This document shows positions 1 to 52,138 of a DNA stretch of 52,138 nt, one piece after another (within the stretch, counting starts at the first letter, position 1; every line of letters starts with the position of its first letter). The stretch spans positions 1 to 52,138 of IMG/VR virus record IMGVR_UViG_3300048623_000036; one strand, written 5' to 3'. The translations under genes were made by a program, and so were the position numbers. The notes beneath the pieces were generated by a model, which saw nothing but the letters and a program-made list of their open reading frames with translations, did not search any database and was not told the origin of the DNA. This stretch comes from a virus. Lineage: Duplodnaviria > Caudoviricetes.

Positions 1-127
1 GAGGCTTGTTCGCTCGTGTGTTACAGTTAACACCTGCCACACTGACGAGCGAACTTGCCTGAGGTAACCAAGAGGGAGGCAATGGCATGCTTCACTACAC
101 CGAAGACGGTATCACCTGGTTCTGGTG
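1..127. repeat. Terminal direct repeat, left copy (circular assembly overlap)
   Basis: Bases 1-127 are identical to 52012-52138; 127 bp matches a common assembler k-mer length. Confidence 0.95.
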
Positions 128-1948: not shown

Positions 1949-2004
1949 CGGCATAAACATAGTTTATGACCTGAAAGTTCCCAAAAAGATCTTGAGATGG
2001 GGCC

Positions 2005-2034
2005 TTGATCTCCTATCTCGCACCGCTGTATAAT
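2005..2034 (+). promoter_or_regulatory. SigA/HrdB-type promoter
   Basis: TTGATC-N18-TATAAT. Confidence 0.8.
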
Positions 2035-2111
2035 TAAACCAGAAGCGAAAAACCATCGCAAACACAGACACTGAACCACATGCCCGTGGAGCAAAGGAAC
2101 AAGGAATCGAC

Positions 2112-2723
2112 ATGACGACCGAATACGACCGTATGGTCGCGGAGCAGGCCTCGAGCCTGAATGAGAACGAGAACGACCCCGAGAACTTCGACACCGATCA
2201 CGGCCTGAGCGACACCGACGAGGACGTCGACGTGGACACGGACTTCAGCGCGGAGGACGACGAGGTCGAGGACGTCACCGACGCTCCGGCCGACGCCACC
2301 TCGACGGCGACCAAGGCCAAGAAGGAGCCGGCCAAGCCGAAGCGCGGCGACCTACCCGAGGGCTTCGTCACGCCGGTCGGCCTCGCGAAGGTCATCACGG
2401 AGCAGGGACTGCACGGCAAGGACAACGATGGAACGCCGCGTGTCTGCCCGCCGCAGGTCGTGTACTCCTACATCAAGAACGCTCCCAAGGAGCACCCGTT
2501 CCCGCTCGAGACGGTGAACGACAGCATCGGCAACCCGCGACAGGCGCTGAAGCTGGACGCCGGTATCGAGTGGTGGAAGGCGAAGAACGCTCGCGTCGCG
2601 GAGCGCAAGACCAACGCGGCGCAGAAGCTCGAGAAGAAGGAAGCTGCTGCGGCCGCCAAGGAAGCCGCAGGCACGACCGAGGCCGCGAGCGAGCCGGAGA
2701 CACCCGCCGAAGAGGCGGAGTGA
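2112..2723 (+). CDS. Putative HTH DNA-binding protein with an acidic N-terminus (paralog of 49323..49637)
   Basis: D/E-rich first ~60 aa; TPVGLAK...PPQVVYSYIK block shared with 49323; strongly biased codons suggest high expression. Confidence 0.55.
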   Translation: MTTEYDRMVAEQASSLNENENDPENFDTDHGLSDTDEDVDVDTDFSAEDDEVEDVTDAPADATSTATKAKKEPAKPKRGDLPEGFVTPVGLAKVITEQGLHGKDNDGTPRVCPPQVVYSYIKNAPKEHPFPLETVNDSIGNPRQALKLDAGIEWWKAKNARVAERKTNAAQKLEKKEAAAAAKEAAGTTEAASEPETPAEEAE

Positions 2724-2914
2724 GGGTCGCGACTTCAGGAGCTTGACGGGGGTCAAGTGATGGGCGGCTTTCACACAAGTGAGGCTACAGGGACTGCAAC
2801 GCGTCCCACCGTCCACGGTAGTAGTGAGTCTGATCAAACTAGCAATCCGTGCATTAAACGAGTGGTGCACGGGGAATGGTGTCGATCAGGACCTACGCCC
2901 AGGGGAAGATGGTC

Positions 2915-2997
2915 TGCCGGTAAGGTCCTTTTAGGGTGCAGGACAGTGGCTTAGCAGTAAAAGCCTCCCAGCGCGGGTTCGAGTCCCGCACCGGCAG
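2915..2997 (+). ncRNA. tRNA-like RNA with a non-canonical anticodon arm
   Basis: Perfect acceptor stem TGCCGGT/ACCGGCA, T arm GCGGG-TTCGAGT-CCCGC, D stem GTCCT/AGGAC; anticodon arm GGCTT-N8-AAGCC has no canonical 7-nt loop. Confidence 0.7.
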
Positions 2998-2999
2998 CT

Positions 3000-3081
3000 G
3001 GAACTGAAGTTAAATGGTCGTCGTACATACCGTCCGATCATGCCAGGTGCGTACGATAAGAGATGTCGCTGCTTCAGTTCC
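3000..3081 (+). ncRNA. Unknown structured RNA unit
   Basis: 11-bp closing helix GGAACTGAAGT/GCTTCAGTTCC with internal stem TCGTAC/GTACGA. Confidence 0.5.
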
Positions 3082-3088
3082 TCTTTAG

Positions 3089-3188
3089 TCAGGACGTTGT
3101 AACGTCACAGATGAAGGTCCACCGATAGAATCGCGCGGCTGCGATTCGCCACCGAGTGGCAAGTAGCAGTGACCGGTCGACGTCCTGA
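3089..3188 (+). ncRNA. Unknown multi-branched structured RNA unit
   Basis: Closing helix TCAGGACGTTG/CGACGTCCTGA; inner GTCAC/GTGAC, GAATCGC/GCGATTC, GCCAC/GTGGC. Confidence 0.55.
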
Positions 3189-3190
3189 TA

Positions 3191-3246
3191 GGAACCACAG
3201 TGTTGCGCGCACTCCTCCCCCCTCGGTGCCGTATTGCTGTGGTTCC
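3191..3246 (+). ncRNA. Long hairpin RNA with a C-rich (anti-SD-like) loop
   Basis: Stem GGAACCACAG.../...CTGTGGTTCC; loop TCCTCCCCCCTCG. Confidence 0.5.
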
Positions 3247-3251
3247 GCTAA

Positions 3252-3323
3252 GCACTCGTAGCTCAACGGGAGAGCACCGGATTGTCAGTCCGGAGGTTGT
3301 GGGTTCGAATCCCATCGGGTGCG
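3252..3323 (+). tRNA. tRNA-Asp(GTC)
   Basis: Full cloverleaf: GCACTCG/CGGGTGC, GCTC/GAGC, CCGGA-TTGTCAG-TCCGG, GTGGG-TTCGAAT-CCCAT; discriminator G; CCA not encoded. Confidence 0.92.
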
Positions 3324-3391
3324 CGGTCGTAGCTATAGATGCGACAAGTGAAGCACAGTATAACCCTTTGAACGGTGCTGTGTCATGTACG

Positions 3392-3523
3392 AAGTGGTGA
3401 AGACGTATGGTCAGTGTCTCACGCCGGTTCGCACGTAGGTGCTATCGGAAGAGACGAGCTCACTGTCGACGGACATAGTAAGGTAGCGCACCTGCCTGTA
3501 ACCGATCGACGTCTTCACCATTT
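3392..3523 (+). ncRNA. Unknown structured RNA unit
   Basis: 15-bp closing helix AAGTGGTGAAGACGT/ACGTCTTCACCATTT with several nested stems (CAGTG/CACTG, GTCTC/GAGAC, GCAC/GTGC, AGGTAG/CTGCCT). Confidence 0.55.
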
Positions 3524-3525
3524 AG

Positions 3526-3609
3526 GCGGGGCGTAGTGTTAATTGGTAGCACGTCGTAGGTTGTGGGGATAATCTACGAAGGTCCGGTTCGAATCCGGCC
3601 GCCGCACCA
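3526..3609 (+). ncRNA. tRNA-like RNA (His/Pro-like) with an extended anticodon arm
   Basis: TAGTGTTAATTGGTAGCAC D arm, CCGG-TTCGAAT-CCGG T arm, 3' ACCA; anticodon arm TCGTAG-GTTGTGGGGATAAT-CTACGA is too long; acceptor stem imperfect. Confidence 0.7.
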
Positions 3610-3697
3610 GGAAGGTAGGGGGTCGCGCCCCTCGAGATCGGATGGCGGTTCGATCGAAGTCCCAAGTCAGGATGAAGCCTGCGAGTCGGAGCCTTCC
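3610..3697 (+). ncRNA. Unknown structured RNA unit
   Basis: Closing helix GGAAGGT/GCCTTCC enclosing three small hairpins. Confidence 0.45.
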
Positions 3698-3705
3698 GGT
3701 TAACT

Positions 3706-3747
3706 GAAGGCCCTCTTTGGATTTACACGTACCTGGAGAGGGCCTTC
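3706..3747 (+). terminator. Hairpin ending the RNA array (probable terminator)
   Basis: GAAGGCCCTCT/AGAGGGCCTTC 11-bp stem just before the next promoter; no U tract. Confidence 0.5.
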
Positions 3748-3769
3748 GCCCATAGACAAAAACTGACTC

Positions 3770-3799
3770 GTGATATCACGAGCTGACCAGCTATATAAT
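3770..3799 (+). promoter_or_regulatory. SigA-type promoter overlapped by a 16-bp palindrome
   Basis: GTGATA-N18-TATAAT; palindrome CTCGTGATATCACGAG at 3767-3782. Confidence 0.65.
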
Positions 3800-3846
3800 A
3801 GAATCAGAGACAAGCCGCTTCGCGGCAAACATACCACAGGGAGGAG

Positions 3847-4332
3847 GTGTCGGTAGTGAACGATGACGATGCGACACCGGTCATGTATGACCATTGTGTC
3901 AAGGTGTTCGAGGAGATGCAGAAGACGGCCACGATCAAAGAGGCTGAGGGTGGCGTCCGCATTGCTGTCTGGGAAGGTTACCTGACGAGGCTGATCCAGC
4001 AGGATCTGGATCTCGCGGTGCCTTACTACAGCGCGATCCGTGCTCATCTGATCCGCATGGGCAGTGTCAAGCAACTCCGTCGTGGCGGTGGCTCCTCCAA
4101 GAGTCAGTGGGAGGTTGTCAAGCCGCCGACGAAGGAACTGTTCGAGACCGCTCAGGCGACGGGCAGTCAACGGCTGCAGCAGAAGGAGACGCACATCCAG
4201 CGGATCAACGACCTGACGCAGCGTGTTGCGAGGCTGGAGCAGAACGAACGCGCGCTGGCTGAGGCGCTCTCGCACCTGCAAGGTCAGTTCGCCGCGCACA
4301 TCAACGCCAACGGTCACGAAGAGGTGGCATAG
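3847..4332 (+). CDS. Possible winged-helix DNA-binding protein with a C-terminal coiled coil
   Basis: YYSAIRAHLIRMGSVKQLRRGGG...QWEV helix-wing pattern; heptad tail; GGAGG RBS. Confidence 0.45.
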   Translation: MSVVNDDDATPVMYDHCVKVFEEMQKTATIKEAEGGVRIAVWEGYLTRLIQQDLDLAVPYYSAIRAHLIRMGSVKQLRRGGGSSKSQWEVVKPPTKELFETAQATGSQRLQQKETHIQRINDLTQRVARLEQNERALAEALSHLQGQFAAHINANGHEEVA

Positions 4333-4616
4333 TGGACGTAGAAACAGGCCTCGACGGAAACATCATTCCGTCGACCATCAGTGATGCGCTGACCTTCGAC
4401 ATGCTCTACCGTCCTGGGAAGGGCTTCGGTCAGAGCGTCATCGGATGCAAACAGCGTGTGTGGGTCATGGACGACCTGACGGGCAACGCGAAGCGGATGC
4501 AGCGACAGTTCATTGCCGATCACGCTACCGATCCTGATCACGTACACATGCGGGACGCCGACCGAACGTTCGAGAACGAGGTTCGCCTTCACGGAACCCT
4601 TGGAGACCTCGCATGA
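4332..4616 (+). CDS. Hypothetical protein
   Basis: Coupled ORF in the operon. Confidence 0.6.
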   Translation: MDVETGLDGNIIPSTISDALTFDMLYRPGKGFGQSVIGCKQRVWVMDDLTGNAKRMQRQFIADHATDPDHVHMRDADRTFENEVRLHGTLGDLA

Positions 4617-15510: not shown

Positions 15511-17739
15511 ATGCAAGGCGTCGAGATCTTTTTCAAGTACCTCTTCGGGCCATCAGTCCAAGGTTATGTCTGCCTGGCCAGCCTGACCAAGTCTAGAGAT
15601 GGGTGGAAGGAAAGCTTCTTCCAGTGGCCAGCTCAGTTAGACGACATGATCGACTTCGTGGCCAAGCGTATCAATACACACAACCTGTACGTCTGTCCGC
15701 AGATCCTGAGCAAGCCGACCAGGAGGAAAGAGTTCGTCAAGGCCTGCCCATCAGCCTGGGCTGATCTGGATCAGTGCAACCCTGACGATTGCATCGTACC
15801 ACCTACCATCTCGATCAGGTCCTCTGAAGGCCGTTACCAAGCGTACTGGGTGTTTGAGGATGCAATGCCTCCGGAAGAGGCAGAGAGCATCAGTCAGCGA
15901 ATCGCATACTATCATGCCTTTCAGGGTGCAGATAAGTCAGGCTGGGACCTGACGCAGATGCTACGCGTACCGCATACACACAATTACAACCACGGTCGTG
16001 ATGACGAGGTTGTAGAAGTGCTGAACATCTCACGTAGTAAGTATCGCATCGAGGACTTCGAGAAATATCCCCAGATCGTCAAGGATAAGGTAGAGCAACT
16101 TGACATACCTCAGCACCTAGGCGATCAGACCGGGGAGGATATACTCGGGAAGTATGCTGAGGTTCTACCTCCACAGGTGGACTTTCTCTTCAGCAACATA
16201 CCAGATTCAGATAGCTGGAGTGAGTCGCTCTGGAAGTTGCAGATGTTCTGTTTCGAAGCAGGCCTCTCAGCTGAAGAGGTTTATCTAGTCGCTCGAGACT
16301 CGAGCTGCAACAAGTACAAACGCGACAACAAGTCGATGGAGTACCTATGGAAGGAGGTATGCCGATCACGTGTCAAACACGCGGAAGTAGCGAAGCTCAC
16401 AGCACCACAGGATGCAGTTGAGCAGCCTCCACTTCTGACTAAAACCGAACGCGATCAGGTTGAAGCGAACAAAGGTCGAAGCGACTTCGTTGACGACTAC
16501 ATCGCATGGGCGAGATCACTAGGTGACGCAGCACCTCAGTACCATCAAGCAGGTGCATTCGTCATCCTGAGCGCGTTGCTGGGTGGTTCAGTGAGACTAC
16601 CTACGTCGTTCGGTACGATGAAGCCTAACCTGTGGTTCATGATCCTTGCAGACACAACCCTGACGCGGAAAAGCACTGCAATGGACATCGCCATGGACCT
16701 GATCGAGGAGGTTGACAGTGGCGCTATTCTCGCAACAGATGGAAGCATCGAAGGCCTCATGGGTTCGCTATCCACAAGGCCAGGACAGCCTTCGGTATTC
16801 CTGCGGGACGAGTTCTCTGGTCTACTCGAAGCCATCACCAAGAAAGACTACTACGCCGGAATGGCGGAGACACTTACGAAGCTCTACGACGGGAAGCTTC
16901 AAAAGAGAGTCCTGAAGAAGGAAGTCATCGAGGTCAAGGATCCTGTACTCGTCCTCTTCGCGGGTGGTATTCGAAACAAGGTATGTGGACTCCTAACGGT
17001 AGAACATATCTCCAGTGGGTTCGTGCCTCGCTTCGTGTTCATCACTGCAGAGTCTGACACATCTCGAGTTCGACCTCTTGGTCCTCCAACACAGCCGAAC
17101 ACTACAGGTCGCAAGGACATGCTCTCTCGTATGAGAGATATGTACATGCACTACAGACTGGAGCCAAGACTCGTCACCATCGACGGACGGTTACAGTACA
17201 ATGCGCCACCTCACTGGGATGCACGGCTCACGCCTGAAGCCTGGTATAGATACAACGTACTCGAAGCGGACATGATGAAGGCTGGCCTAGCATCTGATCA
17301 GCCAGAGATTATGACACCTATGTACGACCGCCTGTGCAAGTCAACACTCAAGGCAGCAGTACTGATAGCCTCATCTAGACAACGACCTGAGACAGGCGAA
17401 GAAGTTGAGGTGACACGCGACGACCTCCTACGGGCTATCGGTCTAGCTGAGGAGTGGCGTGAGTACGGTAACATGATCATCAAGGACGTAGGCATCACTC
17501 AGAATGAGAAGGAGTTTCAGCGCATCCTCGAAGCTGTGATCCGAAAGCCTGGTATCAGCCGTAGTCAGTTGATGCAGAACCACCACCTCACGGCACGTAC
17601 AGCAGATGCAATCTTCTCAACACTGGAGCAGCGAGGCCTCATTAACCGTCACCGTACTGCAGGTCAAAAGGGTGAGCGAATCTTTCCCAACAAGGCACCA
17701 TCCAAAGTAAGGATCAGTGAACATGAAGCGTCTCAGTGA
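15511..17739 (+). CDS. RepB-family primase fused to a DUF3987-like helicase domain
   Basis: WADLD, SSEGRYQAYW, MLRVP primase motifs; RKST and DEF NTPase motifs; C-terminal wHTH. Confidence 0.85.
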   Translation: MQGVEIFFKYLFGPSVQGYVCLASLTKSRDGWKESFFQWPAQLDDMIDFVAKRINTHNLYVCPQILSKPTRRKEFVKACPSAWADLDQCNPDDCIVPPTISIRSSEGRYQAYWVFEDAMPPEEAESISQRIAYYHAFQGADKSGWDLTQMLRVPHTHNYNHGRDDEVVEVLNISRSKYRIEDFEKYPQIVKDKVEQLDIPQHLGDQTGEDILGKYAEVLPPQVDFLFSNIPDSDSWSESLWKLQMFCFEAGLSAEEVYLVARDSSCNKYKRDNKSMEYLWKEVCRSRVKHAEVAKLTAPQDAVEQPPLLTKTERDQVEANKGRSDFVDDYIAWARSLGDAAPQYHQAGAFVILSALLGGSVRLPTSFGTMKPNLWFMILADTTLTRKSTAMDIAMDLIEEVDSGAILATDGSIEGLMGSLSTRPGQPSVFLRDEFSGLLEAITKKDYYAGMAETLTKLYDGKLQKRVLKKEVIEVKDPVLVLFAGGIRNKVCGLLTVEHISSGFVPRFVFITAESDTSRVRPLGPPTQPNTTGRKDMLSRMRDMYMHYRLEPRLVTIDGRLQYNAPPHWDARLTPEAWYRYNVLEADMMKAGLASDQPEIMTPMYDRLCKSTLKAAVLIASSRQRPETGEEVEVTRDDLLRAIGLAEEWREYGNMIIKDVGITQNEKEFQRILEAVIRKPGISRSQLMQNHHLTARTADAIFSTLEQRGLINRHRTAGQKGERIFPNKAPSKVRISEHEASQ

Positions 17740-18421
17740 CAGCGTTGCCGTGGTGAGTGGTGGCATGGACTCCGTGACCATGCTCTACCTCATGGTGCAG
17801 CGACTCTGTATTCCTCACGTCGTCAGCTTCGACTACGGACAGAAGCACGTCAAGGAACTGGAGTGCGCCGCATACCACGCTGACCTTCTAGGCCTACGAC
17901 ACACCGTCGTTCCGATGAAGCACCTCGGCGACTTCCTCAACTCGGCGCTCACCGACAGCGAGACGGATGTGCCTGAGGGTCACTATGCTGCGGAGAACAT
18001 GAAGGCAACCGTCGTCCCTAACCGCAACATGATCATGATGTCTATCGCAGCAGGCATCGCCGTGAGCGAGAAGGCTGCATACCTCGGCGTCGGCATGCAC
18101 GCAGGCGATCACGCGGTGTACCCTGACTGTCGTCCGGAGTTCGTCGTGCACATGGAGACGACGCTGAAGATCGCCAACGACGGCTTCATCCACCCCAACT
18201 TCCAGATCTTCTCGCCGTTCATCAACTCGACCAAGGGCGACATCGTCACCGTCGGGATGAACCTCAAGACCTTCCTGAACTACGGCAAGACGTGGAGCTG
18301 CTACAAGGGTGGCGAGCTGCACTGTGGCAAGTGTGGCACGTGCGTCGAGCGCAAGGAAGCCTTCCAGCTCGCCTGTTACGACGACCCGACGCAGTACGAG
18401 ACCACCGAGGCGATCGCATGA
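17723..18421 (+). CDS. queC: 7-cyano-7-deazaguanine synthase
   Basis: SGGMDS, FDYGQKH, VPNRN, YPDCR, TWSCY, CGKCGTC. Confidence 0.97.
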   Translation: MKRLSDSVAVVSGGMDSVTMLYLMVQRLCIPHVVSFDYGQKHVKELECAAYHADLLGLRHTVVPMKHLGDFLNSALTDSETDVPEGHYAAENMKATVVPNRNMIMMSIAAGIAVSEKAAYLGVGMHAGDHAVYPDCRPEFVVHMETTLKIANDGFIHPNFQIFSPFINSTKGDIVTVGMNLKTFLNYGKTWSCYKGGELHCGKCGTCVERKEAFQLACYDDPTQYETTEAIA

Positions 18422-18693
18422 GCGACCCGCTACAGATCGAGCTAGCCTACATCGACCGGATCGAGAAGCTCGAGAAGGAACTCCTCGAGGCTACACACCT
18501 CCTGGCTGCAGTCGTACACTGCAACGGAGGCGAGGTGACTCTGACCCAGGAGCTCATGACTACTGCTCCGGCAGGTGCAACGCTCGCAGTACACAATGAC
18601 CCTGAGGCGTTGACAGTCACGCTGCAACTTACCAACACGGATGAGGATGAGAAGGGGGGTTCGGATGACGCTTCAGGGAACGACGGTAGTTAG
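18418..18693 (+). CDS. Hypothetical protein inside the que cluster
   Basis: ATGA overlap with queC. Confidence 0.6.
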   Translation: MSDPLQIELAYIDRIEKLEKELLEATHLLAAVVHCNGGEVTLTQELMTTAPAGATLAVHNDPEALTVTLQLTNTDEDEKGGSDDASGNDGS

Positions 18694-19216
18694 TGTCAAG
18701 CACAACTTCGAGACCGCGCACCGTCTCCCGTTTCTGGGTGGCAAGTGTCAGAATCTACACGGTCATTCCTGGCACGCAAGGATCGGTCTACTCAATACCC
18801 ACTACCCTGAGGGCATCAACGAACACGGTATCAGCATCGAGTATGGTCTCGTCAAGAACGTGATCCGCGGCTGGATCGATAGTCACCTCGATCACGGCAC
18901 TATGCTCGGTGCACAAGATACGCTCGCCCAGTTCAGCTTCAGGACGCAACTAGGCAAGGTGTTCATCTTCGGTAGCGAGTTCGAGGGCGAATACCCTGCA
19001 GGTTCCATCACTGGCGTCTATACAGAGCTTCCATGGCCTACTGTGGAGGCTGTAGCGAAGATGCTCGCGGACAAGTTGCAGGAAGCCCTCGAGCAGTCCT
19101 GTGGCAGTCATATCTGGATCGACACCGTTGAGGTACGAGAGACAGCAGTCAATAGCTCGGTCTACATGCCTGGCTTCCTTCGCACGATGGAGAAGGTCGA
19201 TGCTGCGGATCAGTGA
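18665..19216 (+). CDS. queD: 6-carboxy-5,6,7,8-tetrahydropterin synthase
   Basis: AHRL, CQNLHGHSW, LDH, PTVE, ET. Confidence 0.95.
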   Translation: MTLQGTTVVSVKHNFETAHRLPFLGGKCQNLHGHSWHARIGLLNTHYPEGINEHGISIEYGLVKNVIRGWIDSHLDHGTMLGAQDTLAQFSFRTQLGKVFIFGSEFEGEYPAGSITGVYTELPWPTVEAVAKMLADKLQEALEQSCGSHIWIDTVEVRETAVNSSVYMPGFLRTMEKVDAADQ

Positions 19217-19895
19217 AGTGTACACCAGCATTCAGGGTGAAGGTCCTGGTGCCGGTTCACCTACCCAGTTCGTCAGGTTCGCCGGCTGCAACTTGAAGTG
19301 CCCTGGCTGGCCTTGCGACACTCAGCATGCCATCGATCCGAAGCTCTATCGGAACGAGTGGGAGACGATCAGTCCAGATACTCTCCTCAACCATGTGGAG
19401 TCATGGCCACGAGCTGTCACGCTGACTGGTGGAGAGCCTCTCCTTCAGAACAAAGACGATCTCGAAGAGTTTGCCATTCGACTACTGCAGCTCGGTTATA
19501 GTATTGAGCTGTTCACAAACGGTACGTACCTGCTTCCTCACTGGTTGTCCCATCAGGGTATACGTACCCGCATAATCATGGACTGGAAACTCCCGGACAG
19601 CGGAGAGGATCCCGACAATGAGACTCGCATCACAAACCTACAGTACCTCCGTAACCGTGATGCGATCAAGTTCGTATGTGCATCACGGAGGGACTTCGAC
19701 TCCGCACGGGAGATCGCACGCGAGTACATGCTCGAGGGAGGACGTCCGCAGCTCTACCTAGGCGTCGCATGGGGAAAGCTGGAGGAGAAGGAGCTCGTCG
19801 AGTGGATGCTGAAGGAACAGCTTCGCAGTGACGCATGGAAGCTGAACGTGCAGGTGCACAACTACATCTGGCCGAGGGACGAACGAGCGAGGTAG
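19200..19895 (+). CDS. queE: 7-carboxy-7-deazaguanine synthase (radical SAM)
   Basis: SIQGEG, FVRFAGCNLKCPGWPCDT, TGGEP, TNG, QVH. Confidence 0.95.
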   Translation: MLRISEVYTSIQGEGPGAGSPTQFVRFAGCNLKCPGWPCDTQHAIDPKLYRNEWETISPDTLLNHVESWPRAVTLTGGEPLLQNKDDLEEFAIRLLQLGYSIELFTNGTYLLPHWLSHQGIRTRIIMDWKLPDSGEDPDNETRITNLQYLRNRDAIKFVCASRRDFDSAREIAREYMLEGGRPQLYLGVAWGKLEEKELVEWMLKEQLRSDAWKLNVQVHNYIWPRDERAR

Positions 19896-19897
19896 CA

Positions 19898-20629
19898 GTG
19901 GCACACTGGAAGTCACCTCTCGTATATCTAGTTCGTAATGGTAAGACTGTAGTCAATAGAGAGGAAGTCCCCTTGGAAGAGCCTAAGGTAGTAGACATTG
20001 TAGGTCCCCTGACTGGCTCGACCTACAAGATCCCCATCGCACCTGGCATCGGGGAATGGGACCTCTCCACGATCGATCCTGAAGTCCTCGCCGATGCACT
20101 TCTGCGCCGTCTTACTTCCACCTACGAGCCCAACAAGGATCACAGTCGTGATACCGCACGTCGCTGGGTCGCTTCGATGCGGGAACTGGTGACTCCTGAG
20201 CCCTTCAACTTTACCACCTTCCCAGCGACATCGGATGAGATGATCGTACTCGGACCGATGCCCTTCTACACCATGTGCGCTCATCATGTGATTCCATTCT
20301 ACGGACAGGCCTACATCGGCTACGTACCCAAAGACTCGATCGCAGGTCTCAGCAAGTTCGCACGCCTAGTGAAGAACATGGCCAAGGGACTGTGGGTGCA
20401 GGAGGAGCTTACCGGAGCCATCGCCGATGGTATCGAAGCAGAGCTCGAGCCACGAGGTGCGGCAGTCGTCCTCGAAGGTGAGCACATGTGCATGTCGATG
20501 CGTGGCGTGCAGATGCCTGGCGTTGTCACCACTACATCGTCGATGCGCGGAGTCTTCGGCGATCACGAAAGGACTGCGAAGGCAGAGTTTCTACAGATCA
20601 TCGCTCCAAGGAGGAAGACCAGTGGCTGA
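19898..20629 (+). CDS. folE: GTP cyclohydrolase I
   Basis: CAHH, GLSK, VQE, HMCMSMRG; start uncertain. Confidence 0.95.
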   Translation: MAHWKSPLVYLVRNGKTVVNREEVPLEEPKVVDIVGPLTGSTYKIPIAPGIGEWDLSTIDPEVLADALLRRLTSTYEPNKDHSRDTARRWVASMRELVTPEPFNFTTFPATSDEMIVLGPMPFYTMCAHHVIPFYGQAYIGYVPKDSIAGLSKFARLVKNMAKGLWVQEELTGAIADGIEAELEPRGAAVVLEGEHMCMSMRGVQMPGVVTTTSSMRGVFGDHERTAKAEFLQIIAPRRKTSG

Positions 20630-38533: not shown

Positions 38534-38941
38534 CTACTTCTTCTCTTCTGTCTTCGGAGGAGTGCCGCCCGTGTCGGTGGCCTTCTGTTCCGAAGTTCGC
38601 TGCGGAGGCACGTTGGGATCCTGCACTACCGGACCCCCCTCCGTCTTGTACTCGTCGACCGCTGCCTTGGCCTCTTCCTCTCGGAGCTCCTGCAGAGCCT
38701 TGACGACCTTGCGGCCTGCAGGAGTGTCAGGGATGTCAGCCAGCGAGAAGCTGTTGGAAACGCCGGGGAGGTTCTGCTTCAGGTAGAAGAGTTCCTTCTC
38801 CTTGATGATCGAACCCGACTCCTCCAGCTCTTCCATCACGTCCTCAGGAAGACCCTTGACCTCCATGCCCTCCTGGATGTTGACGACACTGTCGCCGTCA
38901 CCGTGTTTGATGTTCGTGGTGGCGATCCACGTGTCAGCCAT
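38534..38941 (-). CDS. Hypothetical head-associated protein
   Basis: AAGGAG RBS; follows the major capsid gene. Confidence 0.65.
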   Translation of the reverse strand: MADTWIATTNIKHGDGDSVVNIQEGMEVKGLPEDVMEELEESGSIIKEKELFYLKQNLPGVSNSFSLADIPDTPAGRKVVKALQELREEEAKAAVDEYKTEGGPVVQDPNVPPQRTSEQKATDTGGTPPKTEEKK

Positions 38942-38954
38942 GCGCTTCAGCTCC

Positions 38955-39947
38955 TTACGGGATGGCACTCTTGATCAGGTATGCCGTGATGAGAAGGTTG
39001 TCGCCCTCGTGCCCGACCAACTTCAGGTCGTAGCGACGCGAGCAGCGGATGAGGTCCGACTTGCGAGGGTCTTCCCTCCATCGGTCGACCTGCTGTGCCT
39101 GCGCACCGTAGCCCCACACGAACTCATAGCCGAAGCCGATGGCACGAGGCGAAGGGCGCGGAGGAACGTAGGCGAGGATGACGTCCTTGCCCCACAGGTA
39201 AGTGATGTTGGCGGAGGTAGCCGCCACACCAGCTGCCGCAGTGGAGTAACCGGTTCCCGGCACGACCACGTTGGGCAGGCCGAGGATCGATGCGATGATC
39301 TCCTCGGTCAGGATGCCACGCTCGGAGTACTTGATTCGCTCGATGAAGTCCGGGTGGTCCTCCAGGTTCGACATCACCAGCCACGGGATGAGAGCGAAGT
39401 TCGGAGGCGAGAACAGCTTCGAGTGGATCGTACGAACACCCGTGCGGATGTCACCGATCGGGTTGGAGGTCGCGTAGTTGGCGACGTCCCACTGAGCCGT
39501 ACCGGAGAGCGTCACCGAATGACCCGCGGCGTAGTTCGACGCGTTGGTAGCCATGTCCTTCATGGCCTTCTCACGCCCGAGGATGATGCGCTCGGTGACG
39601 AGCTCCACTGCGTCCTGATCGGGCGTGAGAGGAACGTCGACGTTCGTACGCTCTTCGTCGGTCACCGCGATCTGCAGCGAGTGCTCGTTCGCGTAGTAGG
39701 TGTCCACCGACACCTGACGACCGGGGATTTCGTTGGCAACCGTGCCAGGTGCACGGATGTCGTGAATCTCCAGCTTGGTCGTCTCACGGTCGAACACGTA
39801 GTACTTGTCCGACTGCTTCTTGACGTTGACCGCCGGGAAGAGCATGGGCCCGGCGAAGTTCTTGTTGATCGGCCACTCGATGGAGATCTCGGTGAGAACC
39901 TTGTCGATGTGGACGTTGCCGGAACCTGTCGGCGAGTAAACTGCCAT
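38955..39947 (-). CDS. Major capsid protein
   Basis: 330 aa, very high GC3, LSGTAQW...SNPIGD; synteny. Confidence 0.9.
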   Translation of the reverse strand: MAVYSPTGSGNVHIDKVLTEISIEWPINKNFAGPMLFPAVNVKKQSDKYYVFDRETTKLEIHDIRAPGTVANEIPGRQVSVDTYYANEHSLQIAVTDEERTNVDVPLTPDQDAVELVTERIILGREKAMKDMATNASNYAAGHSVTLSGTAQWDVANYATSNPIGDIRTGVRTIHSKLFSPPNFALIPWLVMSNLEDHPDFIERIKYSERGILTEEIIASILGLPNVVVPGTGYSTAAAGVAATSANITYLWGKDVILAYVPPRPSPRAIGFGYEFVWGYGAQAQQVDRWREDPRKSDLIRCSRRYDLKLVGHEGDNLLITAYLIKSAIP

Positions 39948-39965
39948 TGTGCCTCCTCCCTATTC

Positions 39966-52011: not shown

Positions 52012-52138
52012 GAGGCTTGTTCGCTCGTGTGTTACAGTTAACACCTGCCACACTGACGAGCGAACTTGCCTGAGGTAACCAAGAGGGAGGCAATGGCATG
52101 CTTCACTACACCGAAGACGGTATCACCTGGTTCTGGTG
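52012..52138. repeat. Terminal direct repeat, right copy
   Basis: Identical to 1-127. Confidence 0.95.

What the first reader, a model, noticed from the sequence alone, without database searches (positions are those of the whole stretch)
2724..3747. About 1 kb polycistronic array of tiled structured RNAs (tRNA, tRNA mimics and unknown folds)
Seen: no credible ORF. At least nine self-contained units are each closed by their own 7-15 bp terminal helix, mostly only 0-8 nt apart: 2829-2890, 2915-2997, 3000-3081, 3089-3188, 3191-3246, 3252-3323, 3392-3523, 3526-3609, 3610-3697, then a final hairpin. Many stems contain G-U pairs, which points to RNA-level rather than DNA-level selection. Only one unit is a normal tRNA. 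The array sits downstream of a consensus promoter (2005) and a highly expressed gene. Inference: a precursor cut, perhaps using the tRNA units as RNase P/Z punctuation, into a set of small RNAs acting as decoys or antitoxins against host defence, or as translation regulators. I do not recognise these units as known RNA families.
Basis: partly seen in the sequence, partly recalled or inferred. Interest (0 to 1): 0.87.

Follow-up and report, generated by a model that had tools for sequence, protein, structure and literature searches.

The report
Phage operon of tiled structured RNAs
An uncultivated soil phage carries, between a strongly codon-biased gene and a closing hairpin, a 1-kb run of back-to-back folded RNA genes (one tRNA, two tRNA look-alikes and several unknown folds) whose stems are kept by matching mutations in its nearest relative.

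Summary
Window 2724-3747 has no credible ORF and is the most strongly folding stretch of this 52-kb phage genome, on the + strand only. Five of the nine units and the final hairpin fold with z of -4 to -6. Five or more long-stemmed units per kb occur nowhere else in the genome.

Only tRNA-Asp(GUC) is a canonical tRNA. Units 2914-2997 and 3526-3609 are tRNA-like, each with a T arm and an acceptor stem. The rest match no Rfam family.

Relatives exist only in soil metagenomes. The gene order is conserved: upstream gene, variable RNA region, hairpin, conserved -10 box, next gene. In the closest relative, 93 of 119 comparable pairs stay paired and 13 carry compensatory changes, against 3-8 in slid controls. 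Closing helices and junctions are better kept than interiors. A C-rich hairpin loop and a 22-nt motif are kept across the subclade.

In 113 related loci I found 58 distinct tRNA-like elements on the gene strand and none on the other. ARAGORN calls only 15 of them.

Best reading: a co-transcribed array of stable small RNAs cut out by host tRNA-processing enzymes. Processing and function are inferred, and no expression data exist. I rate it a new variant of a known kind.

The parts
2005..2034 (+). promoter-like site (TTGATC, 18 nt, TATAAT) upstream of the gene that precedes the array
   Evidence: The -10 box (TA[T/A]AAT) is kept in L046 and L047, but the -35 box is not.
2112..2723 (+). upstream gene P0001 (203 aa: acidic N-terminal part, well-predicted C-terminal domain). 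It is the conserved neighbour of the RNA arrays.
   Evidence: 85 homologues, all from metagenomes. GC3 = 0.89. AlphaFold2 model pLDDT is 92-97 in the 10-residue blocks covering residues 81-170. Fold search gave only weak winged-helix matches, best E = 0.16. No Pfam or PHROG family.
2724..2828 (+). leader segment with three small hairpins, not exceptional by energy (z = -1.13)
   Evidence: It aligns with L045, L046 and L047.
2785..2806 (+). invariant 22-nt motif CTACAGGGACTGCAACGCGTCC. It forms the hairpin GGGAC / 8-nt loop / GTCCC at 2790-2807.
   Evidence: Identical in W, L045, L046 and L047 and absent from the other 112 loci held at that point. A 20-nt core has no match in viral contigs. A 19-nt core gives 14 scattered matches in genome contigs, none with further similarity.
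2829..2890 (+). unit 1: 62-nt irregular hairpin, z = -5.06
   Evidence: In L045 the closing helix keeps all 7 pairs counted (2 with one-sided changes), the second stem carries one compensatory change (2838/2880, AT to GC), and the inner hairpin is replaced by a different hairpin.
2914..2997 (+). unit 2: tRNA-like RNA with an 8-bp acceptor, a perfect 5-bp T stem and a TTCGAGT loop. It has a 5-bp D-like stem, an 8-nt 'anticodon' loop and abnormal spacers, and is not called as a tRNA.
   Evidence: (tRNA-Sec model, 18.2 bits, E = 1.6). The L045 homologue keeps the acceptor through 3 compensatory pairs and keeps the T loop. It scores 24.7 bits on tRNA-Sec.
3000..3081 (+). unit 3: 82 nt, 11-bp closing helix, z = -5.06
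   Evidence: In L045 the closing helix is kept 11 of 11, with one compensatory change (3007/3074); the interior has diverged.
3088..3189 (+). unit 4: about 100 nt, 11-12-bp closing helix, z = -4.08
   Evidence: In L045 only the closing helix remains, as a 7-8-bp hairpin with 2 compensatory pairs; roughly 80 nt of interior is absent.
3191..3246 (+). unit 5: 56-nt near-continuous hairpin (12+4+5 bp) with an 11-nt C-rich loop CCTCCCCCCTC, z = -6.18
   Evidence: Hairpins with unrelated stems carry the same kind of loop in L045 1031-1068, L046 3633-3673 and 3677-3716, and L047 3263-3302.
3252..3324 (+). unit 6: tRNA-Asp (anticodon GTC), with no encoded CCA
   Evidence: ARAGORN. Rfam tRNA 69.2 bits. 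The L045 homologue has the same acceptor 5' strand and a near-identical D arm. By my own reading its anticodon loop is CTCTTAA, which reads as Lys CTT. Three compensatory pairs lie in the anticodon stem.
3326..3390 (+). 68-nt spacer (3324-3391) whose two small hairpins span these coordinates; not exceptional (z = -1.26)
3392..3523 (+). unit 7: 132 nt, a 15+5-bp closing stem on a multi-branch junction, z = -5.23
   Evidence: No homologue was found in any relative.
3526..3609 (+). unit 8: tRNA-like RNA. It has a canonical-looking D arm and a T loop TTCGAAT on a 4-bp stem. An 11-bp hairpin capped by GGGG stands in place of the anticodon arm. The acceptor is imperfect and the 3' end reads ACCA.
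   Evidence: The T arm is recognised inside a weak YrlA match (15.9 bits, E = 4.7). It is not called by ARAGORN or the Rfam tRNA model. At the same position in front of unit 9, L046 has tRNA-Cys(GCA) (Rfam 58.7 bits) and L047 has a 96-nt tRNA-like element ending TCCA.
3610..3697 (+). unit 9: 88-nt cloverleaf-like four-way junction closed by 7 bp. Weak by energy (z = -1.02).
   Evidence: The closing helix GG[A/G]AGGT...CCTTCC is kept in W, L046 and L047, and the first inner hairpin is kept with different sequence.
3705..3748 (+). terminal 15-16-bp hairpin with a 12-nt loop and no U tract, z = -5.52. It sits where relatives have the terminator of the upstream gene.
   Evidence: It is not flagged by the terminator scan. 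Relatives L010, L012, L015 and L034 have a hairpin there with a U tract and 8 compensatory pairs. The minimal gaps of other relatives consist of hairpin plus promoter. One natural variant, C>T at 3726, lies in the loop.
3770..3804 (+). promoter-like site for the next gene (GTGATA, 18 nt, TATAAT, then AGAAT)
   Evidence: CTATATAATAGAA is also present in L046, L047 and in L010, L012, L015 and L034.
3847..4332 (+). downstream gene P0002 (161 aa, unknown function), the conserved right-hand border
   Evidence: (synteny in 37 of the 41 loci L004-L044).

Best explanation
The region is a set of RNA genes inside one transcription unit on the genome arm that also carries the replication genes. The inferred mechanism is as follows. 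RNA polymerase starts at the promoter-like site near 2005, reads the gene 2112-2723 and continues through about 1 kb of back-to-back structured RNAs to the hairpin at 3705-3748. The precursor is then cut into separate stable RNAs.

The tRNA-Asp and the two tRNA-like units offer an acceptor/T-arm stack. That is the feature RNase P and the 3' tRNA-processing enzymes recognise (established knowledge). The units closed by 11-15-bp helices, separated by short A/U-rich junctions, would be released by the same cuts or by RNase E or RNase III.

The products would be one decoding tRNA plus non-decoding RNAs that act on the host during infection. The most concrete candidate is unit 5. Its conserved C-rich loop contains CCTCC, the core of the anti-Shine-Dalgarno sequence (recalled). 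It could pair with G-rich ribosome-binding regions, as the C-rich loops of actinobacterial 6C sRNA do. The tRNA-like units may also serve as decoys or stable scaffolds in the conflict with tRNA-targeting defences.

Shown here: non-coding character, strand-specific structure, conservation of helices through compensatory change, and the operon context. Inferred: co-transcription, processing and function.
For: Structure and strand. This is the lowest GC-corrected + strand energy of any ~1 kb in the genome, with the largest strand asymmetry. The whole region folds at -438.8 against -370.9 kcal/mol. Five of the nine units and the final hairpin have z of -4 to -6, with 0 of 200 shuffles as stable. 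The region holds 5 domains with long closing helices; two tiles lying mostly within it score 4 and the other 98 tiles score 2 or fewer. 34 of 264 predicted pairs are G-U.

Not coding.

Comparative. Gene, variable gap, gene is the order in 37 of the 41 loci L004-L044. Gap length ranges from 304 to 3229 nt. In the closest relative L045, 119 W pairs have letters on both sides: 68 unchanged, 12 one-sided, 13 compensatory and 26 broken. Controls with partners slid by 1-3 columns give 3-8 compensatory and 65-77 broken. The tool's own count is 13 against 0-4. In L045 the closing helix of unit 1 is 100% paired and that of unit 3 likewise. The 8 comparable pairs of the unit 4 closing helix are all paired. 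The unit 2 acceptor is 94.7% paired. Several interior helices are only 50-75% paired.

The C-rich loop is kept on unrelated stems in 5 hairpins from 4 arrays. The 22-mer is invariant in all 4 arrays. The unit 9 closing helix is kept in 3 arrays.

Operon. No promoter-like site lies between the gene and the array except one weak match at 3104 (9 of 12). In relatives without an array, the gap is only a hairpin plus a promoter. In L012 the tRNA-like element starts 3 nt after the hairpin that follows the gene, which leaves no room for a promoter of its own.

Clade trait. There are 58 distinct acceptor-plus-T-arm elements on the gene strand and 0 on the other strand in 527,773 nt of 113 loci. ARAGORN of the 58. 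Rfam scores several 97-113-nt elements as tRNA with large insertions.

The array is identical in the contig pieces of four other soil, root or rhizosphere runs. Its only variant lies in a loop.
Against: There are no expression data, so discrete small RNAs are not shown.

Covariation rests mainly on one pairwise comparison (W against L045). The structure was derived from W, which inflates the share of paired cells. 26 of 119 pairs are broken.

Units 2, 8 and 9 are not exceptional by energy (z = -1.0 to -2.0). Unit 7 has no homologue anywhere.

The terminal hairpin has no U tract and was not picked up by the terminator scan. The -35 box of the upstream promoter is not conserved.

Array RNA shows no excess complementarity to the phage's own genome: 33 exact 11-mers against 28.4 +/- 7.6 in shuffles. 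The C-rich hairpins do not match Rfam 6C.

Interiors can be lost entirely, as with unit 4 in L045. That would also fit a model in which only the helices matter.
Confidence: 0.6

Rival explanations
1. A long structured 3' untranslated region acting in cis. The hairpins would protect the mRNA of gene 2112-2723 from 3' exonucleases, or form an antitermination or attenuation device. The invariant 22-nt hairpin just after the stop codon would be a protein-binding site. Only the tRNA would be released.
For: The array lies between the gene and its hairpin. A hairpin follows the stop codon in the relatives examined. The 22-mer is conserved in sequence rather than merely in structure. Closing helices are better kept than interiors.
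Against: The array contains a canonical tRNA that must be excised, and in relatives tRNA-Cys and a probable tRNA-Lys stand at equivalent places. Units are gained and lost one at a time, and gap lengths range from 304 to 3229 nt. The C-rich loop is conserved as a loop sequence, which points to a trans contact. Relatives also place tRNA-like elements upstream of the gene.
Confidence: 0.17
2. A decaying tRNA gene cluster. Apart from tRNA-Asp, the units would be pseudo-tRNAs and remnants with no function of their own.
For: Units 2 and 8 are degenerate tRNA shapes. L046 has an intact tRNA-Cys where W has unit 8. Most tRNA-like elements of the clade are non-canonical: ARAGORN does not of 58. Interiors diverge fast.
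Against: Decay should erode helices. Instead the non-tRNA units have 11-15-bp closing helices more stable than any shuffle, and these are kept by compensatory changes. Units 1, 3, 4, 5 and 7 have no T-loop motif. The C-rich loop and the 22-mer are conserved. The array is invariant in four other runs.
Confidence: 0.13
3. A DNA-level element built from inverted repeats, such as a replication origin, single-strand initiation signals or a recombination or packaging site.
For: The region holds many inverted repeats in a non-coding stretch on the replication-gene arm.
Against: A DNA cruciform would be strand-symmetric. Here the + strand is 68 kcal/mol more stable and 34 pairs are G-U, which become A-C mismatches on the other strand. 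tRNA-like elements occur 58 to 0 on the gene strand. Arms lie 30-120 nt apart and enclose further structure.
Confidence: 0.04
4. A cluster of very small protein genes.
For: ORFs of 46-76 aa can be drawn on both strands.
Against: They show no coding GC pattern. None has a GGAGG-type Shine-Dalgarno motif in the 20 nt upstream. Seven of eight have GTG or TTG starts, and the only ATG ORF is antisense to the tRNA. Indels of 1, 2 and 8 nt against L045 fall in the aligned part.
Confidence: 0.02

Closest known systems
Bacteriophage T4 tRNA gene cluster with the small stable RNAs C and D
   Same: A phage transcription unit that mixes tRNA genes with other small stable RNAs. [quoted passage not shown] That they lie in the tRNA cluster and are matured by RNase P is my recollection, not from a call.
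   Different: T4 has eight tRNAs and two extra RNAs. Here there is one tRNA and eight or more non-decoding units. There is no sequence or Rfam relation. The host and phage lineage are different.
Polycistrons of irregular tRNA sequences from soil metatranscriptomes (Mukai et al., Nucleic Acids Res 2017, PMC5389517; section 16 read)
   Same: Both come from soil. Both consist of several non-canonical tRNA-like sequences transcribed together, some with longer acceptor stems or extra loops, and some charged but not used in translation. The authors raised regulatory non-coding roles. Unit 2 has an 8-bp acceptor and weakly matches the tRNA-Sec model, as those RNAs did.
   Different: Those polycistrons were assigned to acidobacteria and linked to toxin-antitoxin loci, not to a phage operon. 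They consist of tRNA-shaped units with anticodons, whereas most units here have no T loop. Unit 2 has an 8/5 arrangement rather than 8/4 or 9/3. Their sequences are in supplements that I could not open, so identity or relatedness is untested.
Actinobacterial 6C sRNA (Rfam RF01066; PMC6486639, title and start of abstract seen in the listing)
   Same: Hairpins that display C-rich loops, which in 6C bind mRNA targets. L046 carries two such hairpins side by side, like the two loops of 6C (the two-loop layout of 6C is recalled).
   Different: The Rfam search gave no 6C match at E up to 10 in W or up to 5 in L045-L047. W has a single hairpin. The host is unknown.
Phage tRNAs as counter-defence against tRNA-cutting immune systems (PMC10264068, PMC11555353, PMC11464382, PMC12445682; titles and starts of abstracts seen in the listing)
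   Same: Phage-borne tRNA genes whose anticodon arms evolve quickly. Here the homologous tRNA is Asp(GTC) in W and appears to be Lys(CTT) in L045, on the same acceptor and D arm (my reading). Many relatives carry enlarged or replaced anticodon arms.
   Different: The known cases are decoding tRNAs that replace cleaved host tRNAs. Units 2 and 8 probably cannot decode, and most units are not tRNA-like at all.
Bacterial Y RNA-like YrlA
   Same: A non-coding RNA with a tRNA-like module. There is a weak Rfam match over the T arm of unit 8.
   Different: The score is 15.9 bits against a threshold of 69. The ends of unit 8 lie at the acceptor, so the topology differs (the YrlA layout is recalled). 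No Ro/TROVE protein is encoded in the phage.

Membership tests
tRNA (Rfam RF00005 / ARAGORN) | Cloverleaf with a 7-bp acceptor, D arm, 5-bp anticodon stem with a 7-nt loop, and T arm, scoring above the curated threshold | tested here: met
   Only 3252-3323/4: 69.2 bits (threshold 29) and ARAGORN tRNA-Asp GTC.
tRNA (Rfam RF00005 / ARAGORN) | The same features, applied to units 2914-2997 and 3526-3609 | tested here: not met
   Neither is called by ARAGORN, and there is no tRNA-model match at E up to 10. Unit 2 has an 8-nt loop and abnormal spacers. Unit 8 has an 11-bp hairpin instead of an anticodon loop and a 4-bp T stem. They keep the acceptor plus T arm only; unit 2 meets the strict 7/7 plus 5/5 scan.
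tRNA-Sec / allo-tRNA | Long acceptor branch (8/5, 8/4 or 9/3), long variable arm, a decodable anticodon, and a score above threshold | tested here: not met
   Unit 2 has an 8-bp acceptor and a 5-bp T stem. It scores 18.2 bits, and its L045 homologue 24.7 bits, against a threshold of 47. It has no 7-nt anticodon loop.
YrlA / bacterial Y RNA | Rfam score above threshold, and a Ro60 (TROVE) protein partner encoded nearby | tested here: not met
   15.9 bits against 69. PF05731 is absent from the phage at E up to 1, while the positive controls matched in 2 of 14 genomes.
6C sRNA (RF01066) | Match to the covariance model; two hairpins with C-rich loops | tested here: not met
   No match in W at E up to 10 or in L045-L047 at E up to 5. 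The C-rich loop feature alone is present.
Self-cleaving ribozymes (hammerhead, HDV-like, twister and others in Rfam) | Match to a ribozyme covariance model | tested here: not met
   None in W 2600-3900 at E up to 10. One Hammerhead_II match (40.1 bits, threshold 37) exists in a distant relative, L018 1290-1349.
Type III toxin-antitoxin RNA or CRISPR-like arrays | Tandem direct repeats of one unit | tested here: inconclusive
   By reading and the fold, the units differ in length (56-132 nt) and in sequence. No dedicated repeat search of the window was run.
Phage tRNA cluster with accessory stable RNAs (T4 type) | tRNA and non-tRNA stable RNAs cut from a common precursor by RNase P | not testable with these tools
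   The genomic layout fits. Transcripts and processing cannot be examined, because no RNA run holding this phage was listed.
Intrinsic terminator (for 3705-3748) | G+C-rich hairpin followed by a U tract | tested here: not met
Relatives L010, L012, L015, L034 and L021 have a U tract at the equivalent hairpin. The subclade members L046 and L047 do not.

The most novel reading that the evidence does not exclude
A clade of soil siphoviruses keeps a fast-evolving island of RNA genes around one conserved gene on the replication-gene arm. tRNA top halves (acceptor plus T arm) and roughly 12-bp minihelix-like closing stems would serve as standard processing-and-stability frames. Into these frames, changeable inner 'payload' hairpins are inserted, swapped and deleted. 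The payload RNAs would include C-rich-loop hairpins aimed at ribosome-binding sites and tRNA bodies with replaced anticodon arms. They would be the RNA counterpart of protein anti-defence or host-takeover islands.
Probability: 0.3. Interest if true: 0.85.

Novelty: new variant of a known kind. Interest (0 to 1): 0.68.

Why it matters
Phage non-coding RNAs other than tRNAs are barely catalogued. Even the two accessory RNAs of the T4 tRNA cluster remain without a function.

This locus offers a compact, conserved array of at least nine folded RNAs. It has clear borders and comparative support, and a whole clade of relatives shows the same habit: 58 tRNA-like elements, three quarters of them non-canonical.

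Two outcomes would matter. If the units are released as stable RNAs, they are candidates for RNA-based host takeover or counter-defence. That is timely, because many newly found defences cut tRNAs. The frames (tRNA top half, closing helix, short junction) would also be a natural version of the tRNA-scaffold trick used to express stable RNAs in bacteria (the scaffold comparison is recalled, not from a call).

It also shows that standard tRNA finders miss most of what these phages encode.

Tried and rejected
- Cultured-phage relatives: in the INPHARED phage collection only the tRNA matched. A tblastn search with the head protease reached only distant phages.
- Single-protein scans of viral contigs with P0001, P0002 and the helicase found nothing useful. 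An alignment was needed.
- Expression: no RNA holder was listed for window 2000-4400. Contigs of four DNA runs carry the array unchanged, so they gave no covariation.
- Host. The one genome contigs match to P0001 is a 5.4-kb contig binned with a Pedobacter MAG. Terminase gave nothing. A 20-mer of the tRNA D arm occurs in many phyla. The host stays unknown.
- A 19-mer core of the conserved 22-mer gave 14 scattered matches in genome contigs. None has further similarity or the neighbouring genes, so I read them as chance.
- Antisense targets: complementarity of the array to the phage genome is no higher than in shuffles (33 against 28.4 +/- 7.6 11-mers; 143 against 114.5 +/- 18.3 10-mers).
- P0001 function: the structure model is good for the C-terminal domain, but the PDB fold search gave only weak winged-helix matches (best E = 0.16).
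- MAFFT could not align the tRNA-like units of W, L046 and L047 because of their different inserts. My statements on their correspondence rest on position and on my reading of the D arm.
- A first 1-kb sliding fold timed out and was replaced.
- A strict scan for C-rich-loop hairpins over all loci gave 6 on + and 6 on -. That motif is therefore specific only within the W subclade arrays, not clade-wide.
Full report
**What the window is.** The window is a complete 52,138-bp virus record from a metagenome. Its 127-bp terminal repeat may simply be an assembly overlap of a circular or permuted genome, so distance from the 'left end' carries no meaning. The + strand from about 1 to 25.7 kb carries small orphan genes and the replication genes: helicase, exonuclease, primase and DNA polymerase. 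The - strand from 26 to 48 kb carries the tape measure, protease, portal and other structural genes. No cultured phage is close.

Coding potential. The longest ORFs in 2724-3747 are 46-76 aa. They lack the codon-position GC pattern seen in 12 of 13 reference genes. None has a GGAGG-type Shine-Dalgarno motif upstream, and seven of the eight start with GTG or TTG. The only ATG ORF runs antisense through the tRNA.

Unit borders. Its closing helices are 11, 12, 12, 7 (tRNA), 15, 7 and 16 bp.

Folding against shuffles. Units 1, 3, 4, 5 and 7 and the terminal hairpin have z between -4.1 and -6.2, and none of 200 shuffles was as stable. The tRNA, the two tRNA-like units and unit 9 lie between -1.0 and -2.3.

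Genome-wide control, because units picked by their closing helix are a biased sample. With 120-nt windows, this is the most stable ~1 kb of the + strand after GC correction and has the largest strand asymmetry. With 1024-nt tiles, the two tiles lying mostly within the region hold 4 domains with a closing helix of at least 10 bp, and the exact region holds 5. The other 98 tiles hold 2 or fewer on either strand.

Strand. The whole region folds at -438.8 kcal/mol on + and -370.9 on -. 34 of 264 predicted pairs are G-U.

tRNA finders. ARAGORN and Rfam find only tRNA-Asp(GTC) at 3252-3324. A permissive Rfam search adds only noise-level matches: tRNA-Sec at 18.2 bits on unit 2 and YrlA at 15.9 bits over the T arm of unit 8.

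**The tRNA look-alikes.**

Unit 2 (2914-2997) has a perfect acceptor helix and a perfect 5-bp T stem with loop TTCGAGT. In the whole window it is the only element besides the tRNA that meets a strict acceptor-plus-T-arm scan. Its spacers, its 5-bp D-like stem and its 8-nt 'anticodon' loop are abnormal.

Unit 8 (3526-3609) has a D arm and a T loop of normal appearance. It carries an 11-bp hairpin capped by GGGG where the anticodon arm should be, its acceptor is imperfect, and its 3' end reads ACCA. That end abuts the first base of unit 9.

**Relatives and context.** The upstream protein P0001 (2112-2723) has 85 homologues, all from metagenomes and many on 50-60-kb contigs. With an alignment of 30 of them I fetched three sets of loci:
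- 40 from IMG/VR;
- 1 from a MAG;
- 72 from JGI metagenomes; some duplicate the IMG/VR ones.

In 37 of the first 41 loci the order P0001, gap, P0002, next gene is kept. The gap ranges from 304 to 3229 nt.

Where the gap is minimal it holds only a strong hairpin, usually with a U tract, and a promoter with a TATAAT-type -10 box in front of P0002. In L010, L012, L015 and L034 the hairpin stem shows 8 compensatory pairs, and the box TATATAATAGAAT is invariant. W has the same box at 3791-3804. So the array in W sits between a gene and the hairpin that ends that gene's transcription unit in relatives. Apart from one weak match at 3104, the scan finds no promoter-like site inside it. This is the basis for the operon model. 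Co-transcription itself is inferred.

**A clade-wide habit.** A strict scan required a 5/5 T stem, a TTYRANN loop, and a 7/7 acceptor closing 60-124 nt. It finds 58 distinct elements on the gene strand and none on the opposite strand in 527,773 nt of the 113 related loci. ARAGORN calls only 15 of them, three with 2- or 4-nt 'anticodons' (first seen as 48 to 0).

Rfam scores several 97-113-nt elements as tRNA, with the extra length falling in the anticodon arm in the folds. Folding shows normal acceptor, D and T arms joined to enlarged or replaced anticodon arms.

In three distant relatives the same gap also holds an ATP-dependent ligase gene.

**Direct comparative test of the W units.** Three metagenome loci form a subclade with W:
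- L045: a 1125-nt contig, P0001 65% identical;
- L046: P0001 54%, P0002 57%;
- L047: P0001 51%, P0002 55%.

All four share an invariant 22-mer (W 2785-2806) that forms a 5-bp hairpin with an 8-nt loop about 60 nt after the stop codon. It is absent from the other 112 loci held at that point and from IMG/VR.

W 2732-3100 aligns with L045 at 69% identity (alignment). I projected the W fold onto that alignment. Of the 119 pairs with letters in L045, 68 are unchanged, 12 are changed on one side but still paired, 13 are changed on both sides and still paired, and 26 are broken. With partners slid by 1-3 columns, the compensatory count is 3-8 and the broken count 65-77. The dedicated tool gives 13 against 0-4. 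Two of 500 column shuffles reach the observed value. The tool's own warning applies here: there are only two sequences, and the structure was derived from one of them.

Unit by unit in L045:
- Unit 1 keeps its closing helix and gains one compensatory pair, and its inner hairpin is replaced by another hairpin.
- The acceptor of unit 2 covaries at three consecutive pairs, and its T loop is kept.
- Unit 3 keeps 11 of 11 closing pairs, one of them compensatory, around a diverged interior.
- Unit 4 is reduced to its closing helix, with two compensatory pairs.
- The junctions TCTTTAG and GCTAAG are identical.
- The tRNA keeps its acceptor and D arm. By my reading of the alignment its anticodon arm reads Lys(CTT) instead of Asp(GTC), but the contig ends inside it.

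Unit 5 behaves differently. Its stem is unrelated in every relative. Its loop (CCTCCCCCCTC in W) recurs on 11-15-bp stems in L045, twice in tandem in L046, and in L047.

The unit 9 closing helix is kept in W, L046 and L047, and its first inner hairpin is kept with different sequence. The slot in front of unit 9 holds unit 8 in W, a canonical tRNA-Cys in L046 (Rfam 58.7 bits; ARAGORN) and a 96-nt tRNA-like element ending TCCA in L047.

Unit 7 has no counterpart anywhere.

**How it most likely works.**

Shown: an RNA-level, strand-specific, non-coding array. Its helices, one loop and one hairpin motif are under selection, and it lies inside a conserved gene-hairpin-promoter frame.

Inferred: one precursor from the promoter-like site near 2005. 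Its -10 box is conserved in L046 and L047 but its -35 box is not. Release of the units would be by RNase P and the 3' tRNA-processing enzymes at the tRNA and tRNA-like units. These enzymes recognise the acceptor/T-arm stack (established knowledge). RNase E or RNase III would cut at the short A/U-rich junctions and long helices.

Several features are what one expects of processing frames around changeable contents: the ACCA end of unit 8 abutting unit 9, the conserved junctions, and the better conservation of closing helices than of interiors.

For function I commit to trans-acting small RNAs used against the host. The clearest lead is the C-rich loop of unit 5, which contains the anti-Shine-Dalgarno core CCTCC and resembles the working part of 6C sRNA (PMC6486639, listing only). 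Membership in 6C was tested and not met. The tRNA-like units fit the current picture of phage tRNAs in conflicts with tRNA-cutting defences (listing). However, they probably cannot decode, so a decoy or scaffold role is a guess.

**Rivals.**
- A purely cis-acting structured 3' UTR or antitermination device remains possible, mainly because the helices and the 22-mer are what is conserved.
- A decaying tRNA cluster is unlikely, given helices stronger than any shuffle and kept by compensation.
- A DNA-level element is contradicted by the strand asymmetry and the G-U pairs.
- Small proteins are contradicted.

**Comparison with what is known.** Three systems come closest:
- The T4 tRNA cluster with RNAs C and D, whose function is still unknown (PMC9697503, passages).
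- The polycistrons of irregular tRNAs that Mukai et al. found in soil metatranscriptomes (PMC5389517, section 16). Their sequences are in supplements I could not open, so relatedness is untested.
- The C-rich-loop sRNA 6C.

The array is not a member of any Rfam family apart from the tRNA. I found no paper describing such arrays in phages in searches. These cover only the open-access library. I rate it a new variant of a known kind, namely a phage tRNA cluster with accessory stable RNAs in which the accessory RNAs dominate.

**Limits.** There is no expression evidence and the host is unknown. Covariation rests on one to three relatives per unit. Three units are unremarkable by energy alone. The terminator role of the last hairpin is inferred from position and from relatives, not from a U tract.

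Noticed in passing
window 17717-20629: A complete-looking preQ0 / 7-deazaguanine pathway: QueC (17717-18421, E = 1.4e-59), PTPS/QueD (18641-19216), a radical-SAM QueE-like protein (19101-19895) and GTP cyclohydrolase I (19835-20629). No TGT or DpdA family appeared among the Pfam matches. The array's only canonical tRNA, Asp(GUC), is one of the tRNAs that carry queuosine (recalled). Whether the pathway serves DNA modification or tRNA modification is open.
   Followed up: partly
L018 1290-1349: A Hammerhead_II ribozyme match just above the Rfam threshold (40.1 bits against 37), upstream of the P0001 homologue in a distant relative. This suggests that self-cleaving ribozymes take part in some of these RNA regions.
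   Followed up: no
L038 5527-6561, L040 3910-4848, L041 4487-5479: In three distant relatives the same gene-to-gene gap holds an ATP-dependent ligase (DNA_ligase_A_M plus the OB domain), in L041 about 430 nt downstream of a tRNA-like element. The Pfam scans of W ORFs found no such ligase.
   Followed up: partly
L012 4050-4146, L019 5526-5621, L033 2482-2583, L036 5098-5207, L047 3483-3578 and others: tRNA genes with normal acceptor, D and T arms but 20-45 extra nt in the anticodon arm. Some keep a normal-looking 7-nt anticodon loop sequence followed by an insert: L025 2530-2606 is read as Trp CCA plus 5 nt, and L047 is read by ARAGORN as Val GAC. They could be intron-like inserts, nuclease-resistant variants or payload carriers.
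   Followed up: partly
window 38881-39960: A second ~1-kb stretch whose + strand folds almost as well as the array after GC correction. It lies among the - strand structural genes, and its strand asymmetry is much smaller (diff about -3 against -6). I have no explanation for it.
   Followed up: no
window 1-127 and 52012-52138: The direct terminal repeat is exactly 127 bp. That is a length typical of an assembler overlap (recalled), so the record may be a circularly closed assembly rather than a genome with true terminal repeats.
   Followed up: partly
window 2112-2723 and its homologues: P0001 combines a very acidic, disordered N-terminal half with a confidently predicted C-terminal domain (pLDDT 92-97 over roughly residues 81-170) that has only weak winged-helix resemblance. 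It has GC3 = 0.89 and is the fixed neighbour of the RNA arrays across the clade. Its role, and any link to the RNAs, is unknown.
   Followed up: partly
window 3252-3324 versus L045 1074-1125: Homologous tRNA genes share the acceptor 5' strand and a near-identical D arm but differ in anticodon arm: Asp GTC in W and apparently Lys CTT in L045. This suggests anticodon-arm replacement on a constant body. The L045 contig ends inside the gene.
   Followed up: partly
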